A stretch of DNA of 64,000 nucleotides from Candidatus Hadarchaeota archaeon (lineage in GTDB: Archaea; Hadarchaeota; Hadarchaeia; Hadarchaeales; Hadarchaeaceae), in contig CAZMCI010000001.1 of NCBI GenBank assembly GCA_964564905.1, positions 7,986 through 71,985 on the forward strand. The letters run 5' to 3'. Numbering within the stretch: the first letter of the stretch is position 1; every line of letters starts with the position of its first letter. Positions 1,371-7,231 of this stretch are shown here, piece by piece. Under the pieces are notes generated by a model. It saw only the letters and a list, made by a program, of their open reading frames with translations. It did not search any database and was not told where the DNA came from. A program made the translations under genes and the position numbers.

Positions 1371-3839
1371 TTAGGCGGAATATTTCATCTCGGCGATAAT
1401 TCTTTTCACCGTCTCCTTTGGATTCGCCGAGTTATAGATGGCGCTCCCGGCGATGCAGATATCAGCTCCAGCTCTGATGACATCTTTCGCCACGCCTTCT
1501 TTTATCCCGCCCGCGACGGCAAGAGGGAACTGTCCGGCTCGTCTCTTGGCCTCCGAAATAAGTTGGGTTTGTTCGTATATCCCACGTCCTTTTTGCTGTT
1601 CGCTTATACCACGGTGCAGACAGAAGACCACCCGGGACTCATGCCCCCTCAACTCCTTGACGAGCTCTCCCATCACCTCGAGAGGATCCGGGCAATCGAT
1701 AAAATCTATGAGAACGGCCCTGTTCCACTGAGCCGCCTCGCTCACCGCCTCCATTACCTTCGTCCTTCCTCCGATGGCAAGCACGGCGGAGACGTCAGCG
1801 CCCGCCCTGAACGCTATCCGAGCCTCTAGATTCCCGACATCCATCGTCTTCAGATCCGCCACGAGGATAGCTCCGGGAGCAGCTTTTCTGAGGGCCGGCA
1901 GGAGGACATCGACCCCATGTCTCTTCACCGACGGCGTCCCGGCCTCTATAATCCTAGCGCCGCCCGCGTACGCTTGCCGAGCCATCTTGGCGATGGTCTC
2001 CACATCCGCGTCCATGTCAAGCGCGACCTGAAGTTGAGGAAATTCGATCCTCTCCAACGGACTCAACATTACTTCGATCCTTCTGGCCCGTTTTGGCCTC
2101 TTGAGCGGCGGTACCTTTGCTGGTATGCCCTTTCTGCTCCATCCTCTCTCCTTATAATACTCCCTGAGAAGCGGATTCAGTTTAACACCGAACTCCCGAG
2201 GTAGCCGATCGTGGGTGGAGTCAAATCCCTCGCGTACGTTGAAGAGTCTCTCCACCGTGTATATCCTCGATCCCACCTCACGCAGGTGTTGGTTGGTCCA
2301 TTCCAGTCCAGTTACCGCGGTCAGAATCCTCGCGATGTCATCAAGCTCATATTCTAGGGTTGTGAAGAGGGCAAGTCCGTGATACTTACATCCGATCATC
2401 GAATCGTAAATGGCGAAGGCATCCTGCATTTTTCGGACCAGCGAAGCCTTTCTGGTTTCGGTGCTTGGATCGACGAACTCGGGATTGCTCAGGATCTCAG
2501 GACCGATGGTATACGCCCGCAGGTGACATCCGCCGCGATTTGAGGTCGCATATGCCAACGCTATTCCCTTCGCCCCCCGCGGATCATAAGCCGGGAGCTC
2601 CAGCCCCTTGACATGAGGAGCAAGAACTTCCAAGTTGAGTTCACGGGCGGCGGCCGCCAGTCCTTTTGAGAACTTTGACCTTCCGCTGGCTATCTCGCGA
2701 ACTAGCTTTTCTGCATCGGCGAGATTTCCGACCTCACCCGCCGCCCTAGCAAAACCCAATATGGCACCAATGGAGATCGCATCAAGTCCCAGTTCATCGC
2801 ATAACCGGTTTAGAGGGACTATCTCCCGTTCATAACTATAAAATCCGGAGTTCGGGCCCAACATGACCAAATTTTCGTATTCCGGACCTTTCCCTTCCCA
2901 TCCATTGACCCTGACCCAACGGCCACACGCGGTGGGACATGCAAAACATGCCGTACGTTTGACGAGATATCGCTCCCGTATGGTCTCTCCGGAGAACTGA
3001 TCCACATCTTCAAATGTCAGGCGGCGCCCAGAAAAATTCTCTGTCGGCAACATTCCGGCTGCTGTGATCCGGTGGACGAGCACAGCGGTGCCAAATCTGG
3101 CCAAGCTACCATCGACACCAGTGACTGGATGGGTTTCTACCGTTCGTCTTATCTTTTCCAAAATTTTTTTGTACACGCTTTCATGCACGATATTTACTTT
3201 CCCCTCGGCCCGCACGGCTACCGCCTTCAAGCGTTTGGAACCCATCACGGCCCCCATCCCACATCTTCCAGCCACACTTTCCCTGCCGGTACGAGCCCCC
3301 GCGCAGATGCATGCCATGCGCGCCAAGTTTTCCCCAGCGGGCCCTATCGTAGCAACCCATGCGCCATCGTATCTGTCCACCAGCTCTCGTCTCGTCTCCG
3401 ATGTGGTCTTACCCCACAAGGAACTCGCGTTCTCGATCGAGACCTTATCGTGATCGATGACCAAGTAAACAGGATCGGACGCTCGGCCCTCGAATACGAT
3501 GCCATCAAACCCAGCTCGTTTTAGATAAGCTCCAAATGAACCACCCATGAGGGAATCCGCAATCGTACCGGTAAGCGGTGATTTTGAACACACAGCCGTC
3601 CTACCGGCTCCGGGAAACATGGTTCCAGTGAGAGGACCGGTCATAAAGATAAGTTTGTTTTTCGGGCCAAGCGGATCTGTGCCAGGTTTGAGTTCATCGT
3701 AAAGAAGTTTAGCAGCGTAACCCCTGCCACCCAAGAAGTTATAGGCCGTCGTCATATCCGTTTTCTTCGTGGTGATAGAACCATTCGAGAGGTTCACCCT
3801 CAGCAACTTGCCGGTGTATCCGCCGATCATGAAATCCAC
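1371..3839 (-). CDS. Fusion protein: aldehyde:ferredoxin oxidoreductase (AOR/FOR family, tungstopterin) N-terminal ~600 aa + 3-hexulose-6-phosphate synthase (HPS, OMPDC suprafamily) C-terminal ~215 aa
   Basis: Continuous 822-aa ORF. AOR-type N-terminus MIGGYTGKLLRVNLSNGSI; Cys cluster RTACFACPTACG. HPS signatures LQVALDMD and ADLKTMDVG; the C-terminal half matches the HPS/KGPDC fold. Confidence 0.75.
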   Translation of the reverse strand: MDFMIGGYTGKLLRVNLSNGSITTKKTDMTTAYNFLGGRGYAAKLLYDELKPGTDPLGPKNKLIFMTGPLTGTMFPGAGRTAVCSKSPLTGTIADSLMGGSFGAYLKRAGFDGIVFEGRASDPVYLVIDHDKVSIENASSLWGKTTSETRRELVDRYDGAWVATIGPAGENLARMACICAGARTGRESVAGRCGMGAVMGSKRLKAVAVRAEGKVNIVHESVYKKILEKIRRTVETHPVTGVDGSLARFGTAVLVHRITAAGMLPTENFSGRRLTFEDVDQFSGETIRERYLVKRTACFACPTACGRWVRVNGWEGKGPEYENLVMLGPNSGFYSYEREIVPLNRLCDELGLDAISIGAILGFARAAGEVGNLADAEKLVREIASGRSKFSKGLAAAARELNLEVLAPHVKGLELPAYDPRGAKGIALAYATSNRGGCHLRAYTIGPEILSNPEFVDPSTETRKASLVRKMQDAFAIYDSMIGCKYHGLALFTTLEYELDDIARILTAVTGLEWTNQHLREVGSRIYTVERLFNVREGFDSTHDRLPREFGVKLNPLLREYYKERGWSRKGIPAKVPPLKRPKRARRIEVMLSPLERIEFPQLQVALDMDADVETIAKMARQAYAGGARIIEAGTPSVKRHGVDVLLPALRKAAPGAILVADLKTMDVGNLEARIAFRAGADVSAVLAIGGRTKVMEAVSEAAQWNRAVLIDFIDCPDPLEVMGELVKELRGHESRVVFCLHRGISEQQKGRGIYEQTQLISEAKRRAGQFPLAVAGGIKEGVAKDVIRAGADICIAGSAIYNSANPKETVKRIIAEMKYSA

Positions 3840-3887: not shown

Positions 3888-4745
3888 TTGACAAAAACGG
3901 AAAAAATCACGGTCACGACGATCCGTGAAATGAAGGATCGCGGCGAACGTGTGACGATGGTGTCTGCCTATGATTACATCATGGGATGCATGGTGGACAA
4001 ATCTGAGATAGACATCGTCCTAGTCGGAGACTCGCTCGGAAATGTGATACTGGGATATAAGGATACGCTCTCTGTCACCATGGATGAGATGATCCACCAC
4101 ACCAGAGCCGTATCCCGGGGGGTAAAACGTGCCCTGGTGGTTGGGGATCTTCCATTCATGTCCTATCAAGCAAGTGTTGAGGACGCTATCAGAAATGCGG
4201 GACGCTTTTTGAAAGAAGGCCACGCCGAGGCTGTTAAGGTAGAGGGGGGTCGCGGCATGATCCAAAAAATCGAGGCAATAATCCAGTCGGGGATACCTGT
4301 GATGGGACACTTGGGCTTAACCCCCCAGTGGTACCACCAGTTTGGAGGTTTTAAAGTCCGCGGAAAAACTAAATCAACTGCACAGATGATCCTTAAGGAC
4401 GCGCAGAGGTTGGAACGTGCGGGTGTCTTCAGCATAGTCCTCGAATGTATTCCCTGGCAGCTGGCAAAACTGATCACAGAAAAGGTCTCCGTGCCAACGA
4501 TCGGGATAGGGGCCGGTCCGTACTGTGATGGACAAGTACTGGTTCTCCATGATCTTTTGGGTATAACTCCCCAAGTGCCAAAATTCGTCAAGCGTTACGC
4601 CAAACTTGATGAGACGATTGTGCGGGCCCTCTCAGAATTCAAACGGGAGGTAAAATCAAATAAATTTCCAACCCTCGAACACAGTTACGATATGCCCCGT
4701 GAAGAAACGCAGAAGTTGCTCAGAGAATTTAGAAAAAGGCGATGA
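3888..4745 (+). CDS. panB: 3-methyl-2-oxobutanoate hydroxymethyltransferase (ketopantoate hydroxymethyltransferase)
   Basis: VSAYDY, VGDSLGNV and VVGDLPFMSY motifs; 285 aa, typical PanB length. Confidence 0.85.
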   Translation: MTKTEKITVTTIREMKDRGERVTMVSAYDYIMGCMVDKSEIDIVLVGDSLGNVILGYKDTLSVTMDEMIHHTRAVSRGVKRALVVGDLPFMSYQASVEDAIRNAGRFLKEGHAEAVKVEGGRGMIQKIEAIIQSGIPVMGHLGLTPQWYHQFGGFKVRGKTKSTAQMILKDAQRLERAGVFSIVLECIPWQLAKLITEKVSVPTIGIGAGPYCDGQVLVLHDLLGITPQVPKFVKRYAKLDETIVRALSEFKREVKSNKFPTLEHSYDMPREETQKLLREFRKRR

Positions 4746-4808
4746 ACCACAACACGCTTAAATATCCTGAAAAACAGGATAAAACGTCGAGAAAACGGAG
4801 GTGTAAAA

Positions 4809-4973
4809 ATGGCGTATGTTGTGAAGTCTGCCGTGAGAGGGTTGATAAAAAACATGAGAGCTAGCGAGGATTTCTTCAAGGAACTTGACGCATTAATAGC
4901 GAAAACGTGCAAGCGAGCAGTGGAACGAGCAAAAGGCAACGGAAGAAAGACCCTGCGAGGCGTCGATATTTAA
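4809..4973 (+). CDS. Small (54 aa) histone-fold-like protein, resembling a truncated archaeal HMf-type histone
   Basis: Not in the ORF track (<60 aa). ATG preceded by GGAGGTG. Ends ...KGNGRKTLRGVDI, resembling the HMfB AGRKTIKAEDI loop-L2/alpha3 start. Terminator hairpin downstream. Confidence 0.4.
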   Translation: MAYVVKSAVRGLIKNMRASEDFFKELDALIAKTCKRAVERAKGNGRKTLRGVDI

Positions 4974-4985
4974 AAATTTGAGCTT

Positions 4986-5031
4986 CAGTGGTGGCGTCGC
5001 AAAAGCTACCACTGGTTTTATTTTTATTTTT
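4986..5031. terminator. Hairpin (CAGTGGT...ACCACTG) plus a 17-nt T-rich tract between convergent genes; probably a bidirectional terminator
   Basis: 7-bp perfect stem, 15-nt loop, then GTTTTATTTTTATTTTT. Archaeal termination is oligo-T dependent. Confidence 0.4.
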
Positions 5032-5050
5032 CACCTCCCTCATTAATCAG

Positions 5051-7231
5051 TTACTTTATGATCACTATATCCACATTTCCTCTTTTTCTGATGACGTTGA
5101 GTTCCACATCCTTTTTCTGGCGAGTCAAAACAACATCGACCGCACCGCTTCCCACCTTTAAATTTTTAAGCCTGACCTTTTGGAGAAACTCTGGAAGAAC
5201 TGGATGATCAAAAATCACCTTTGATTGTTCTCCTATCACGGAAAGTCCCATACACGCTTGGAGTATGAAAAACGGAGCTGCGGCTGCCCAGGACTGGGGA
5301 ACACATGTTCCCGGGTAAAGGGTTGGGCCCTCGCCACGACGACGTTCGAATCCGCAAAATAACTCCGGTAGGCTGTGATTTTCCAAAAATAAACTAGCAT
5401 CAAAAAGAGAGGTAAGGATTCTCAGGGCCAAGTCCTTGTATCCGTATCTTCCAAGTCCAAACGCCACCAGAGCATTGTCGTGGGGCCAGATCGAACCATT
5501 GTGGTAGGAGGTTGGATTATATCTGACCTCCGATGTCGCCACGGTTCTCACGCCCCATCCTGAAAAGAAGATGTCATCCATCAGAAGAGACGAGATACGG
5601 CGCGCATGTTTAGGAGCGGCTATTCCGGAAAATAATGAATGTGCGGCGTTTGAGGTTCGAACTTTGCACGGACGTTTTTTTCCGTCAAGTGCTAACACGT
5701 ACGTGGAGATATCGTCGCTCCAAAATGTTTTCTGAAACCTCTCCTTTAATGCAGCGGCCTGACGAGCAAGGGACCTCGCTTCTTTCATGTTCCCAAGCAT
5801 GCGGGCTAACTCGGAGGCTCTGGATTTAGCGGCGTAAACGTACCCCTGAACCTCACATACCGCGATCGGTCCCTCAGCAATGACCCCATCCTCATAAAAA
5901 ATCGAATCTGATGAATCCTTCCATCCCTGATGTAAAAGACCGTTCGGGGAACGTCTGATGTATTCAACAAATCCATCACCGTCAAAGTCTCCATACTCAT
6001 CTATCCATTTCAAAGCCATTTCGATGTTTGACCAAATTTTTTTGATGAGAGGTTTGTCCCCGGTGTACCGGTAGTATTCACCAGCGAGAAAAACGAAAAG
6101 AGGGGTGGAATCCACGCTCCCGTAATAACGTCTGAATGGAACTTCCCCGGTTCTGGCCATTTCCCCCTTGCGAATCTCATGCAGGATCTTTCCAGGTTCA
6201 GCATCCTCGTTTGGAATGACGTCGCTCGCCTGATTAGCAGCCAAGTAAAGCAATACGTCTCTACCTATGTAAGGGTCGATCCAAAGAAGCTCTAAAGCTG
6301 TTATTATACCATCCCTCCCAAAGGTGGTGTTAAACCATGGAATTCCACCGTAGGGATAGAATCCATGAGATGTTTTTGTAAGCATTATGTGAATATCCGC
6401 CAAGGAACGATTCAGCCAGTCGTTAAACTGTTCATTGGAGGTGTAAATCTCACACTCGCGGGCCTTTATTGATCTTAGAGTACTCCTCACTTTTCGCACG
6501 GCGTTTTCGTATGGCACCACTCGTAGGGTTTTGTTCAGCTCACACGCCACGGTTATTAAAAAGGACGTTTCCTCCTTTGGTTGTAGCCTCACGTGGAAGT
6601 CCGCCCTAGAATCGAGTATACTATCTGGCTTCCAGGAGAACCTGATAACGGTTTTTCTGAATATCCCGTCCGCTCCCCTATAGGGAAACACGACCTTTCT
6701 TTTTTGCACAAGAGGTTTCAGTCTTTTCCCTTTTTTTCTCCGCTTCACACCCCTGACTTCAAACAAATCGGCAAAATCGCTACCGAAATACACTGAAAAG
6801 GGGACATCGACAGGATAGAGTCCGTAGTTCCGAATCCCGAAACGTTCATAACAAATACCGTTATAAAGAAATTTGGAACGAAACACGTGAAGGCTTCCTT
6901 TGGGGACAACGATCGTATCTTTGAGGGTTATGTCTGGATTCGTGAGATCCACCGTGAGAAAAGCATTGTCTTCCTTTATCCCAGAACTCAAAAATAATGG
7001 TCGGAGGCCGTCAAATGTGAAATTCAACCGTGACAAAAACCTGGTCCCCTCGTGGTAGATCCCACCATCACCTCCTGGCTGGATATCGCCAAACCGATCA
7101 AATATGGCAAAAGTCTCACCGTGCTTAAGCACGTGCTTGCTAATCCTCGGCTCTAGTGAGGTGATCTTGATGTAGTACTGATTTTTAAAGCTGATGGTGT
7201 CCTCCAAGAAACCAAGGCCCTCCCAAATCAT
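5051..7231 (-). CDS. Glycogen debranching enzyme / amylo-alpha-1,6-glucosidase family (GDE N-terminal + GDE_C six-hairpin glycosidase domain)
   Basis: 726 aa. GDE_C-type motifs GIPWFNTTFGRDGIITALELL and HQGWKDS; bacterial/archaeal GDE architecture. Confidence 0.65.
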   Translation of the reverse strand: MIWEGLGFLEDTISFKNQYYIKITSLEPRISKHVLKHGETFAIFDRFGDIQPGGDGGIYHEGTRFLSRLNFTFDGLRPLFLSSGIKEDNAFLTVDLTNPDITLKDTIVVPKGSLHVFRSKFLYNGICYERFGIRNYGLYPVDVPFSVYFGSDFADLFEVRGVKRRKKGKRLKPLVQKRKVVFPYRGADGIFRKTVIRFSWKPDSILDSRADFHVRLQPKEETSFLITVACELNKTLRVVPYENAVRKVRSTLRSIKARECEIYTSNEQFNDWLNRSLADIHIMLTKTSHGFYPYGGIPWFNTTFGRDGIITALELLWIDPYIGRDVLLYLAANQASDVIPNEDAEPGKILHEIRKGEMARTGEVPFRRYYGSVDSTPLFVFLAGEYYRYTGDKPLIKKIWSNIEMALKWIDEYGDFDGDGFVEYIRRSPNGLLHQGWKDSSDSIFYEDGVIAEGPIAVCEVQGYVYAAKSRASELARMLGNMKEARSLARQAAALKERFQKTFWSDDISTYVLALDGKKRPCKVRTSNAAHSLFSGIAAPKHARRISSLLMDDIFFSGWGVRTVATSEVRYNPTSYHNGSIWPHDNALVAFGLGRYGYKDLALRILTSLFDASLFLENHSLPELFCGFERRRGEGPTLYPGTCVPQSWAAAAPFFILQACMGLSVIGEQSKVIFDHPVLPEFLQKVRLKNLKVGSGAVDVVLTRQKKDVELNVIRKRGNVDIVIIK

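What the first reader, a model, noticed from the sequence alone, without database searches (positions are those of the whole stretch)
4809..4973. Unannotated 54-aa histone-fold-like mini-protein with SD and terminator
This ORF is below the 60-aa cutoff of the ORF track. It has a GGAGGTG Shine-Dalgarno sequence 6 nt upstream and an intrinsic-terminator-like hairpin plus T-tract downstream. Its C-terminus (KRAVERAKGNGRKTLRGVDI) resembles the alpha2-L2-alpha3 junction of archaeal HMf histones (AGRKTIKAEDI). It is about 13 aa shorter than a canonical histone and lacks most of alpha3. It may be a truncated or variant histone-fold DNA-binding protein.
Basis: partly seen in the sequence, partly recalled or inferred. 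Interest (0 to 1): 0.5.

Follow-up and report, generated by a model that had tools for sequence, protein, structure and literature searches.

The report
Short archaeal face-to-face histone gene
The 54-codon ORF is a real, strongly conserved gene for a short "alpha3-truncated" histone of the face-to-face type in a Hadarchaeota archaeon; this chromatin-protein family was catalogued in 2024 and has solved structures, so the gene is an ordinary member of a known family.

Summary
The ORF at 4809-4973 (+) exists as described: 54 aa, GGAGGTG 5 nt before the ATG, and a hairpin plus T-tract after the stop. It is not a fragment. Orthologues in 80 other genomes are almost all 54 aa. The stop codon falls one residue after an invariant Asp in 81 of 81 loci, and dN/dS is 0.04-0.09. 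The window comes from a Hadarchaeota archaeon, not a bacterium.

The AlphaFold2 model (pLDDT 94.8) is a histone fold with a one-turn alpha3. It superposes on the solved alpha3 histones HTkC (TM 0.92, rmsd 1.1 A), HBb and HLp, and much less well on nucleosomal histones (TM about 0.6). The family profile hits HTkC at E 2.5e-14.

The protein carries every residue published as the signature of face-to-face (FtF) histones:
- the tetramerisation pair R40 and N44;
- the R46-x-T48-xxxx-D53 motif;
- a free C-terminus one residue after that Asp.

The likeliest function is a basic (pI 10.2) dimer-of-dimers that binds and wraps DNA without sequence preference. The tetramer and the DNA binding are inferred, not tested here.

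Schwab et al. 2024 already list Hadarchaeota among the phyla in the key of their alpha3-histone tree, and orthologues are named in RefSeq and IMG.

The parts
4758..4764 (+). Archaeal TATA-box-like element TTAAATA, 51 nt upstream of the ATG; inferred promoter of the histone gene, starting 13 nt after the panB stop codon
   Evidence: TTAAATA lies at -46 to -52 in 26 of 31 sequences (the window plus 30 Hadarchaeota loci). The other five carry TTTATTT or TTAAGTA at -42 to -51. The heptamer occurs only 8 times on both strands of the 64-kb window. Promoter function and the transcription start (about 4787-4790) are inferred, not measured.
4797..4803 (+). Shine-Dalgarno sequence GGAGGTG, 5-nt spacer to the ATG
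   Evidence: Read directly from the sequence. A GGAGGT(G) or GGGGGTG element lies at -13 or -12 in 31 of 31 Hadarchaeota sequences.
4809..4973 (+). Coding sequence of a 54-aa alpha3-truncated histone of the face-to-face type (6.0 kDa, pI 10.2)
   Evidence: Translation. Homologues. Purifying selection. AlphaFold2 model, pLDDT 94.8, helices 6-13, 20-43 and 51-53. Fold match to HTkC, HBb and HLp. Profile match to HTkC at E 2.5e-14. Signature residues R40, N44, R46, T48 and D53 are invariant.
4986..5014 (+). Stem-loop (10 bp, 9-nt loop) just before the T-tract; probably part of a terminator shared with the convergent glycogen-debranching-type gene, whose stop is at 5051
   Evidence: -21.3 kcal/mol, z -4.9. 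A homologous hairpin GGTGGYGGC...GCTRCCAC occurs in 12 of 31 Hadarchaeota sequences, with T-A to C-G exchanges at two stem positions. L005 and L008 carry a different hairpin, and 16 loci have none. It is therefore clade-specific and not essential to the family.
5016..5031 (+). T-tract TTTTATTTTTATTTTT; likely archaeal transcription terminator
   Evidence: Read directly from the sequence. T-runs of 4-9 lie within 60 nt of the stop in 30 of 31 Hadarchaeota sequences; L007 is the exception. That oligo-T tracts act as archaeal termination signals is established knowledge. Termination here is inferred.

Best explanation
The ORF encodes an archaeal alpha3-truncated histone of the face-to-face (FtF) type, an orthologue-level relative of Thermococcus kodakarensis HTkC and Haloferax volcanii HVO_0196, in a Hadarchaeota genome. 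Shown here: it is a conserved, selected gene; its predicted fold is a histone fold with a shortened alpha2 and a one-turn alpha3; and it carries all published FtF signature residues. Inferred by analogy with the solved and tested members: two chains form the usual histone handshake dimer. Two dimers then close into a flat torus-shaped tetramer, held by salt bridges from R40 to the free C-terminal carboxylate (I54) of the opposite dimer and by N44-R46 hydrogen bonds. The tetramer binds DNA without sequence preference through K6, S7, R10, R17 (minor-groove arginine), R46, K47, T48 and R50, and bends or wraps roughly 50-60 bp. It would thus act as a nucleoid or chromatin protein. The gene has its own TATA box, a strong SD and a T-tract terminator. 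This fits an independently and probably highly expressed monocistronic gene, but expression was not measured.
For: - Homology: single-sequence phmmer against the PDB gives HTkC (9f2c) E 6.5e-5 and HBb (8fvx, 8cmp) about 3e-3. The family profile gives HTkC 2.5e-14, HBb 1.2e-7, HLp 9e-7 and HMfA only 0.019.
- Fold: AlphaFold2 pLDDT 94.8. Foldseek gives HTkC TM 0.92 and rmsd 1.1 A, and HBb and HLp 0.88-0.91. The next group, nucleosomal histones, reaches only about 0.6. All 50 top hits are histone folds.
- Signature residues: V5, K6, R17, A37, R40, A41, N44, R46, T48, R50 and D53 are invariant in 40 sequences. Among 113 single-domain representatives at 50% clustering, R40 is kept in 111, N44 in 108, R46 in 111, T48 in 109 and D53 in 108, and 101 end exactly at the last profile column. 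These equal R41, N45, R47, T49 and D54 plus the C-terminus at residue 55 of H. volcanii D4GZE0, the residues Schwab et al. give as the strongest-conserved in FtF histones.
- HTkC R45, which aligns with R40 here, is experimentally required for the tetramer; R45A gives a dimer. The short alpha3 is needed for the carboxylate salt bridge.
- HBb, a strict dimer, has S and D at the two tetramerisation positions and runs 5 residues past this C-terminus.
- 7 of the 10 HTkC DNA-contact positions are identical or conservatively replaced in the gapped profile alignment.
- The stop codon is at the same aligned position in 81 of 81 loci, and dN/dS is 0.04-0.09.
- Taxonomy: the best loci are all Hadesarchaea/Hadarchaeota MAGs, and Hadarchaeota is in the key of the published alpha3-histone tree.
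Against: - The feature that formally defines FtF histones, a confident tetramer prediction or a measured tetramer, could not be tested; only monomer prediction was available.
- No DNA-binding or expression data exist for this protein or for any Hadarchaeota member.
- Pairwise identity of the model to HBb (37-38%) is slightly higher than to HTkC (33-34%), so overall similarity alone does not separate FtF histones from dimer histones.
- This clade keeps the Lys of RKT (K47) and an invariant R50, which the general FtF profile is said not to conserve strongly. Its DNA contacts may therefore differ in detail.
- Pfam gives no hit, and NCBIfam archaea_histone reaches only 18.8 bits against a cutoff of 50.
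Confidence: 0.85

Rival explanations
1. It is an alpha3-truncated histone that works only as a dimer and bends DNA, as Bdellovibrio HBb does, rather than closing into a face-to-face tetramer that wraps DNA.
For: The monomer fold matches HBb as well as it matches HTkC (TM 0.90-0.91 against 0.92), and identity to HBb is slightly higher (37-38% against 33-34%). It has the full RKT motif, as HBb does. Tetramerisation was not tested here.
Against: R40 and N44, the two dimer-dimer contact residues that bacterial dimer histones lack, are invariant here; HBb has S and D at those positions. The C-terminus ends exactly where FtF histones end, whereas HBb continues for 5 residues. The family profile scores HTkC 56 bits against 35 bits for HBb. 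The bacterial dimer category is described as exclusive to bacteria, and this host is an archaeon.
Confidence: 0.1
2. It is a histone-fold protein of the DUF1931 kind, as RefSeq names its orthologues: a protein that lacks the histone DNA-binding residues and has a role other than organising DNA.
For: NCBI and UniRef name orthologues 'DUF1931 domain-containing protein'. Tandem-doublet relatives of about 120 aa give weak Pfam DUF1931 hits.
Against: Pfam DUF1931 (PF09123) gives no hit to this protein or to its 54-aa orthologues, even at E <= 1. The solved DUF1931 pseudodimers did not appear at E <= 1 in the profile search of the PDB. DUF1931 proteins are pseudodimers that lack the DNA-binding signature, whereas this protein is a single fold with R17 and RKTxxxxD invariant. 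The depositors also named the FtF histone HLp 'DUF1931 domain-containing protein', so the label is a naming habit.
Confidence: 0.03
3. It is a decaying fragment of a nucleosomal histone gene, or a chance ORF that is not expressed.
For: It is short and below common ORF cut-offs, and ORFs of this size are frequent by chance. Three related genomes carry a longer, HMf-like histone next to it, so such genes exist in the lineage.
Against: Length and stop position are conserved in 81 of 81 loci from several archaeal phyla. dN/dS is 0.04-0.09 and variation is dominated by third codon positions. The TATA box and SD are conserved. The model is confident. In L014, L015 and L020 the long histone and the 54-aa gene coexist side by side, so one is not a remnant of the other.
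Confidence: 0.02

Closest known systems
HTkC (TK1040) of Thermococcus kodakarensis, archaeal face-to-face histone, PDB 9F2C and 9T30
   Same: It is the best sequence and fold match: profile E 2.5e-14, TM 0.92, rmsd 1.1 A. Both have a single histone fold with a shortened alpha2 and a one-turn alpha3. The tetramerisation arginine (R45 in HTkC, R40 here), the R-K-T of loop L2, and the positions aligned with HTkC K7, S8, K11 and R22 are shared. Both chains end at the same aligned position.
   Different: Identity is only 33-34%. HTkC has a 4-residue insertion between alpha1 and loop L1. HTkC has E where this protein has the FtF-typical N44, and it lacks the Asp of RxTxxxxD, using an E49/R57/H58 network instead. 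This protein keeps the canonical D53. HTkC has been tested biochemically and genetically; this protein has not.
HVO_0196 (D4GZE0) of Haloferax volcanii, the reference FtF histone of Schwab et al. 2024
   Same: The published key residues K11, R41, N45, R47, T49 and D54 and the C-terminus at residue 55 map one-for-one onto R10, R40, N44, R46, T48, D53 and I54 here, with a uniform shift of one residue.
   Different: The sequence itself was not available to the tools, so the comparison rests on published residue numbers. The host phyla differ (Halobacteriota against Hadarchaeota). Position 10 is Arg here rather than Lys.
HBb (Bd0055) of Bdellovibrio bacteriovorus, bacterial dimer histone, PDB 8FVX and 8CMP
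   Same: It belongs to the same alpha3-truncated superfamily and has the same monomer fold (TM 0.90-0.91). It shares the RKTxxxD motif and the VxS-K motif at the start of alpha1.
   Different: HBb has S and D at the positions of R40 and N44, and it extends 5 residues beyond this protein's C-terminus. It is a strict dimer that bends DNA, and it is bacterial.
HMfA/HMfB-type nucleosomal archaeal histones
   Same: They share the histone fold, the minor-groove arginine of loop L1 and the RKTxxxxD motif.
   Different: They are weak matches (profile E 0.019, TM 0.5-0.6). They are about 15 aa longer, with a full 10-residue alpha3 and a longer alpha2, and they form open hypernucleosome polymers rather than a closed tetramer.

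Membership tests
alpha3-truncated histones (alpha3 histone superfamily, Schwab et al. 2024) | Histone fold (alpha1-L1-alpha2-L2-alpha3) | tested here: met
   The AlphaFold2 model has pLDDT 94.8 with helices at 6-13, 20-43 and 51-53. All 50 best Foldseek PDB hits are histone-fold chains.
alpha3-truncated histones (alpha3 histone superfamily, Schwab et al. 2024) | alpha3 helix of only 3-4 residues, and alpha2 4-5 residues shorter than in nucleosomal histones | tested here: met
   alpha3 spans residues 51-53 and the chain ends at 54; alpha2 is 24 residues. The alignment with HMfB shows a 4-residue gap in alpha2 and no counterpart of the last 9 HMfB residues. The definition is quoted.
alpha3-truncated histones (alpha3 histone superfamily, Schwab et al. 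2024) | Sequence and structure closer to solved alpha3 members than to nucleosomal histones | tested here: met
   Profile E-values are HTkC 2.5e-14, HBb 1.2e-7 and HLp 9e-7, against HMfA 0.019. TM scores are 0.88-0.92 against about 0.6.
Face-to-face (FtF) histones | Torus-shaped homotetramer of two dimers facing each other (the predicted or measured quaternary structure that defines the category) | not testable with these tools
   Structure prediction models single chains only. AlphaFold-Multimer or SEC-MALS is needed.
Face-to-face (FtF) histones | Conserved dimer-dimer contact residues Arg and Asn (HMM positions 48 and 52; R41 and N45 in D4GZE0; R45 in HTkC) | tested here: met
   R40 and N44 are invariant in 40 of 40 sequences, and are kept in 111 and 108 of 113 representatives. 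R40 aligns with HTkC R45.
Face-to-face (FtF) histones | RxTxxxxD motif, with the free C-terminal carboxylate one residue after the Asp as partner of the Arg salt bridge | tested here: met
   R46, T48 and D53 are invariant. The stop codon comes directly after residue 54 in 81 of 81 loci. 101 of 113 representatives end at the last profile column.
Face-to-face (FtF) histones | Conserved basic residues on alpha1 (HMM position 16; K11 in D4GZE0) for DNA binding | tested here: met
   Position 10 is R or K in 102 of 113 representatives, and K6 is invariant in the close family. DNA binding itself was not tested.
Bacterial dimer histones (HBb type) | Lack of the FtF tetramerisation residues; sequences cluster with HBb; exclusive to bacteria | tested here: not met
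   R40 and N44 are present. The host is a Hadarchaeota archaeon. The profile scores HBb 21 bits lower than HTkC.
DUF1931 pseudodimeric histones (Pfam PF09123; Aq_328, TTHA type) | Match to PF09123; two fused histone folds; no canonical DNA-binding residues | tested here: not met
   There is no PF09123 hit at E <= 1 for this protein or for its 54-aa orthologues. It has a single fold, with R17 and RKTxxxxD conserved.
Nucleosomal archaeal histones (HMf type; NCBIfam NF043032, Pfam PF00808) | Score above the family cut-off; full-length alpha3 that allows open-ended polymerisation | tested here: not met
   NF043032 scores 18.8 bits against a cutoff of 50. There is no PF00808 hit. alpha3 is a single turn.

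The most novel reading that the evidence does not exclude
In this Hadarchaeota lineage the 54-aa FtF histone could be the main or only histone, as proposed for Halobacteria. No other histone lies in the 64-kb window, and only 3 of 30 related loci carry an adjacent HMf-like gene. The clade-specific conserved 3' stem-loop could then be a transcript-stabilising or regulatory element for a very abundant mRNA rather than a mere terminator. This clade also combines the FtF tetramer residues with a full RKT motif and an invariant R50, so it might wrap DNA differently from HTkC.
Probability: 0.12. Interest if true: 0.4.

Novelty: already known. Interest (0 to 1): 0.15.

Why it matters
It matters little beyond correct annotation. 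The gene should be labelled an alpha3-truncated (face-to-face type) histone rather than left uncalled, called 'hypothetical', or called 'DUF1931'. The case shows that ORF tracks with a 60-aa cut-off systematically hide this widespread family of chromatin proteins; a profile search found 1510 clusters at 50% identity. Hadarchaeota are uncultured subsurface archaea, so knowing their set of nucleoid proteins is useful background. The family, its fold, its tetramer and its DNA wrapping have already been described in Thermococcus, Haloferax and Leptospira.

Tried and rejected
- Pfam scan of the 54-aa protein: no family at E <= 1. NCBIfam gave only a sub-threshold archaea_histone hit. Library HMMs are therefore insensitive to this family. 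The PDB sequence search and the profile and structure work were what identified it.
- Sigma-70 promoter scan: none found. This is irrelevant, since the host is an archaeon.
- Terminator scan: it missed the hairpin because the loop is 9 nt and the limit is 8. Direct folding recovered it.
- tRNA and Rfam scans of the window: nothing found, so there is no RNA-gene explanation for the region.
- Antisense ORFs 4685-4939 (-) and 4876-5043 (-): rejected as coding, because variation among orthologues follows the + frame, with 312/167/827 differences on codon positions 1/2/3.
- Search for a second histone in the window, using the family profile and HMfA/HMfB over all six-frame segments of 35 aa or more: none found.
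- MAFFT alignment of the 3' hairpins was partly misregistered for L006, L016 and L022. I used per-sequence folds instead.
- Foldseek against afdb50 was unavailable.
- A tetramer prediction could not be run, because the tool models single chains and accepts only window or database sequences.
- The supplement of Schwab et al. holds no per-phylum table as text. It gives only the tree key that names Hadarchaeota.

Full report
**1. The observation**

The ORF at 4809-4973 on the + strand is present and translates to MAYVVKSAVRGLIKNMRASEDFFKELDALIAKTCKRAVERAKGNGRKTLRGVDI. GGAGGTG lies at 4797-4803, 5 nt before the ATG.

After the stop there is a 10-bp stem (4986-4995 with 5005-5014) and a 9-nt loop, then TTTTATTTTTATTTTT at 5016-5031. 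The region folds at -21.3 kcal/mol, z = -4.9, and none of 200 shuffles fold as well. The generic terminator scan missed it only because it allows loops of at most 8 nt.

**2. It is a real gene, not a chance ORF or a fragment**

- A database search found 93 homologues down to 48% identity, 77 of them exactly 54 aa.
- A scan of one genome per species found at least 357 confirmed loci from the single peptide pattern RAK[GA]NGRKT, and the 80 best were kept.
- In all 81 loci held (L001, an identical copy of the window locus, plus 80 others) the stop codon follows the residue after the invariant Asp.
- Against 30 Hadarchaeota orthologues, differences fall 312/167/827 on codon positions 1/2/3. dN/dS is 0.04-0.09 wherever dS is not saturated. 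This also rules out the overlapping antisense ORFs.
- Among 1041 six-frame segments of the window, only this one matches the family profile (E 1.4e-33). None matches HMfA or HMfB.

**3. The host**

The best loci are all Hadesarchaea/Hadarchaeota MAGs. The closest is isolate B75_G9 at 93% protein identity, and it shows the same gene order as the window: AOR-HPS fusion, panB, histone, debranching-type glycosidase, GT4 glycosyltransferase. Slightly more distant orthologues lie in Aenigmatarchaeota and Bathyarchaeia.

The window is therefore archaeal, and the expression signals must be read accordingly:

- TTAAATA lies at -46 to -52 from the ATG in 26 of 31 Hadarchaeota sequences. The other five have TTTATTT or TTAAGTA at -42 to -51. 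The heptamer occurs only 8 times on both strands of the whole window.
- The SD is present at -13 or -12 in 31 of 31.
- T-runs of 4-9 lie within 60 nt of the stop in 30 of 31.
- The hairpin is found only in a subclade. Twelve sequences share GGTGGYGGC...GCTRCCAC, with T-A to C-G exchanges at two stem positions. Two have a different hairpin, and 16 have none.
- The panB-histone adjacency is kept in 28 of the 31 other Hadarchaeota loci (L002-L032). The TATA box sits between the two genes, so I infer a separate transcript. Expression itself was not measured.

**4. What the protein is**

Pfam gives nothing, and NCBIfam gives only a sub-threshold archaea_histone hit. Searches against solved structures are informative:

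| Search | HTkC (9F2C) | HBb | HLp | Nucleosomal histones |
|---|---|---|---|---|
| Single sequence, E-value | 6.5e-5 | about 3e-3 | no hit at E <= 10 | no hit at E <= 10 |
| Family profile, E-value and bits | 2.5e-14 (56 bits) | 1.2e-7 (35 bits) | 9e-7 (32 bits) | HMfA 0.019 (18 bits) |
| Foldseek TM to the model | 0.92, rmsd 1.1 A | 0.88-0.91 | 0.88-0.89 | 0.5-0.6 |

- HTkC is the face-to-face histone of Thermococcus kodakarensis and HBb is the Bdellovibrio dimer histone.
- The AlphaFold2 model built on 40 family sequences is confident: pLDDT 94.8, alpha1 at 6-13, alpha2 at 20-43, and a one-turn alpha3 at 51-53.
- All 50 top Foldseek hits are histone folds.

This is the architecture that Schwab et al. 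(Nat Commun 2024, PMC11390915) define as 'alpha3 histones': alpha3 of 3-4 residues and alpha2 4-5 residues shorter than in nucleosomal histones.

**5. Which alpha3 category**

The paper defines face-to-face (FtF) histones by a torus-shaped tetramer. It names their most conserved residues as HMM positions 48, 52, 54, 56 and 61, which are R41, N45, R47, T49 and D54 of H. volcanii D4GZE0. R41 forms a salt bridge to the C-terminal carboxylate (residue 55) of the opposite dimer, and N45 bonds to R47.

Here R40, N44, R46, T48 and D53 are invariant and the chain ends at 54. This is the same pattern shifted by one residue. In 113 single-domain representatives of the wider family, these five residues are kept in 108-111, and 101 end exactly at the last profile column.

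HTkC R45, which aligns with R40, is experimentally required for tetramer formation, and the short C-terminus is needed for that salt bridge (bioRxiv 10.64898/2025.12.06.692711). HBb, which is strictly dimeric, has S and D at these two positions and runs 5 residues further. Bacterial dimer histones are described as lacking these residues and as exclusive to bacteria.

I therefore file the protein as an FtF-type alpha3 histone. The tetramer itself could not be predicted or measured with the tools available.

**6. Likely mechanism (inferred by analogy)**

- Two chains form a handshake dimer.
- Two dimers close into a planar tetramer through the R40-carboxylate and N44-R46 contacts.
- DNA is bound without sequence preference.
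- In the gapped profile alignment, the HTkC DNA-contact residues K7, S8, K11, R22, R51, K52 and T53 correspond to K6, S7, R10, R17, R46, K47 and T48 here.
- The protein is 6.0 kDa with pI 10.2.
- HTkC and HLp wrap DNA around the tetramer and compact it. htkC is highly expressed and its deletion impairs growth. The Leptospira FtF histone is essential.
- No expression or binding data exist for Hadarchaeota.

**7. Rivals**

- An HBb-like dimer-only bender is not excluded (about 0.1), because the quaternary structure is untested and identity to HBb is slightly higher than to HTkC.
- The RefSeq label 'DUF1931' is not supported. There is no PF09123 hit, the protein is a single fold, and the DNA-binding residues are present. 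The PDB depositors gave the same label to the FtF histone HLp.
- The pseudogene and chance-ORF readings are refuted by the conservation described above.

**8. Novelty**

- The family, its fold, the tetramer and DNA wrapping are published.
- Hadarchaeota appears in the key of the alpha3-histone tree in Supplementary Figure 6 of Schwab et al..
- The identical protein is already in NCBI, JGI and ENA collections, unnamed. Orthologues at 76% identity have RefSeq and UniRef entries, and IMG calls several 'histone H3/H4'.
- A profile search of 1.84 billion representative proteins gives 1510 clusters at E <= 0.001.
- This is an ordinary member of a known family. Its practical lesson is that a 60-aa ORF cut-off hides it.

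**9. Seen in passing**

- The neighbouring 822-aa protein fuses an aldehyde:ferredoxin oxidoreductase to a 3-hexulose-6-phosphate-synthase-like domain. The fusion is conserved in other Hadarchaeota.
- Three related genomes carry a longer HMf-like histone between panB and the FtF gene.
- One MAG has two FtF copies.
- Many top profile hits are tandem doublets of this fold, about 120 aa long.

Noticed in passing
window 1371-3839 (-): An 822-aa protein fuses a tungsten-type aldehyde:ferredoxin oxidoreductase (AFOR_N plus AFOR_C) to a C-terminal domain resembling 3-hexulose-6-phosphate synthase (residues 600-820; TIGR03128 scores 131 bits against a cutoff of 200). The full-length fusion is conserved at 71-79% identity in Hadarchaeota loci L011, L012, L013, L029, L030 and L032. 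It could channel formaldehyde between a ribulose-monophosphate-pathway step and a formaldehyde-oxidising AOR.
   Followed up: partly
L014 3577-3861, L015 2569-2856, L020 431-655: Three Hadesarchaea MAGs carry a second, longer histone gene between panB and the 54-aa histone (about 64 aa, MMAVKLPKATVIKLFKDAGAARVSGD...AAGRKTVSADDLRLVVVS). It matches HMfA and HMfB at about E 1e-9 and has a full alpha3. The window has no such gene: only 63 nt separate panB from the histone ATG.
   Followed up: partly
L023 and L027 (Candidatus Hadarchaeum yellowstonense YNP_45, two contigs): The same MAG holds two copies of the short histone, at 76% and 84% identity to the window protein. The second copy may have a short N-terminal extension, since its only in-frame start codon lies 9 codons upstream of the aligned region.
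   Followed up: no
proteins P0094, P0096-P0100 and about 40 further hits: Many of the best profile hits are proteins of about 114-130 aa made of two tandem copies of this short histone fold. In most of the five read (P0094, P0096-P0099), both halves keep the R...N.R.T....D pattern. They give weak Pfam hits to DUF1931 and CBFD_NFYB_HMF. They look like covalent 'pseudodimers' of alpha3 histones. I did not check whether they are a described category.
   Followed up: partly
window 4986-5014 and the matching positions in L002, L004, L006, L011, L016, L021-L024, L026, L028: The 3' hairpin after the histone gene is homologous in 12 Hadarchaeota sequences and keeps its pairing through T-A to C-G exchanges at two stem positions. 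Sister lineages have only T-tracts. It lies between convergent genes and may be a two-way terminator or a transcript-stabilising element.
   Followed up: partly
window-wide: The heptamer TTAAATA occurs only 8 times on both strands of the 64-kb window, and one of those is the histone promoter position. The other seven may mark further strong archaeal promoters.
   Followed up: no
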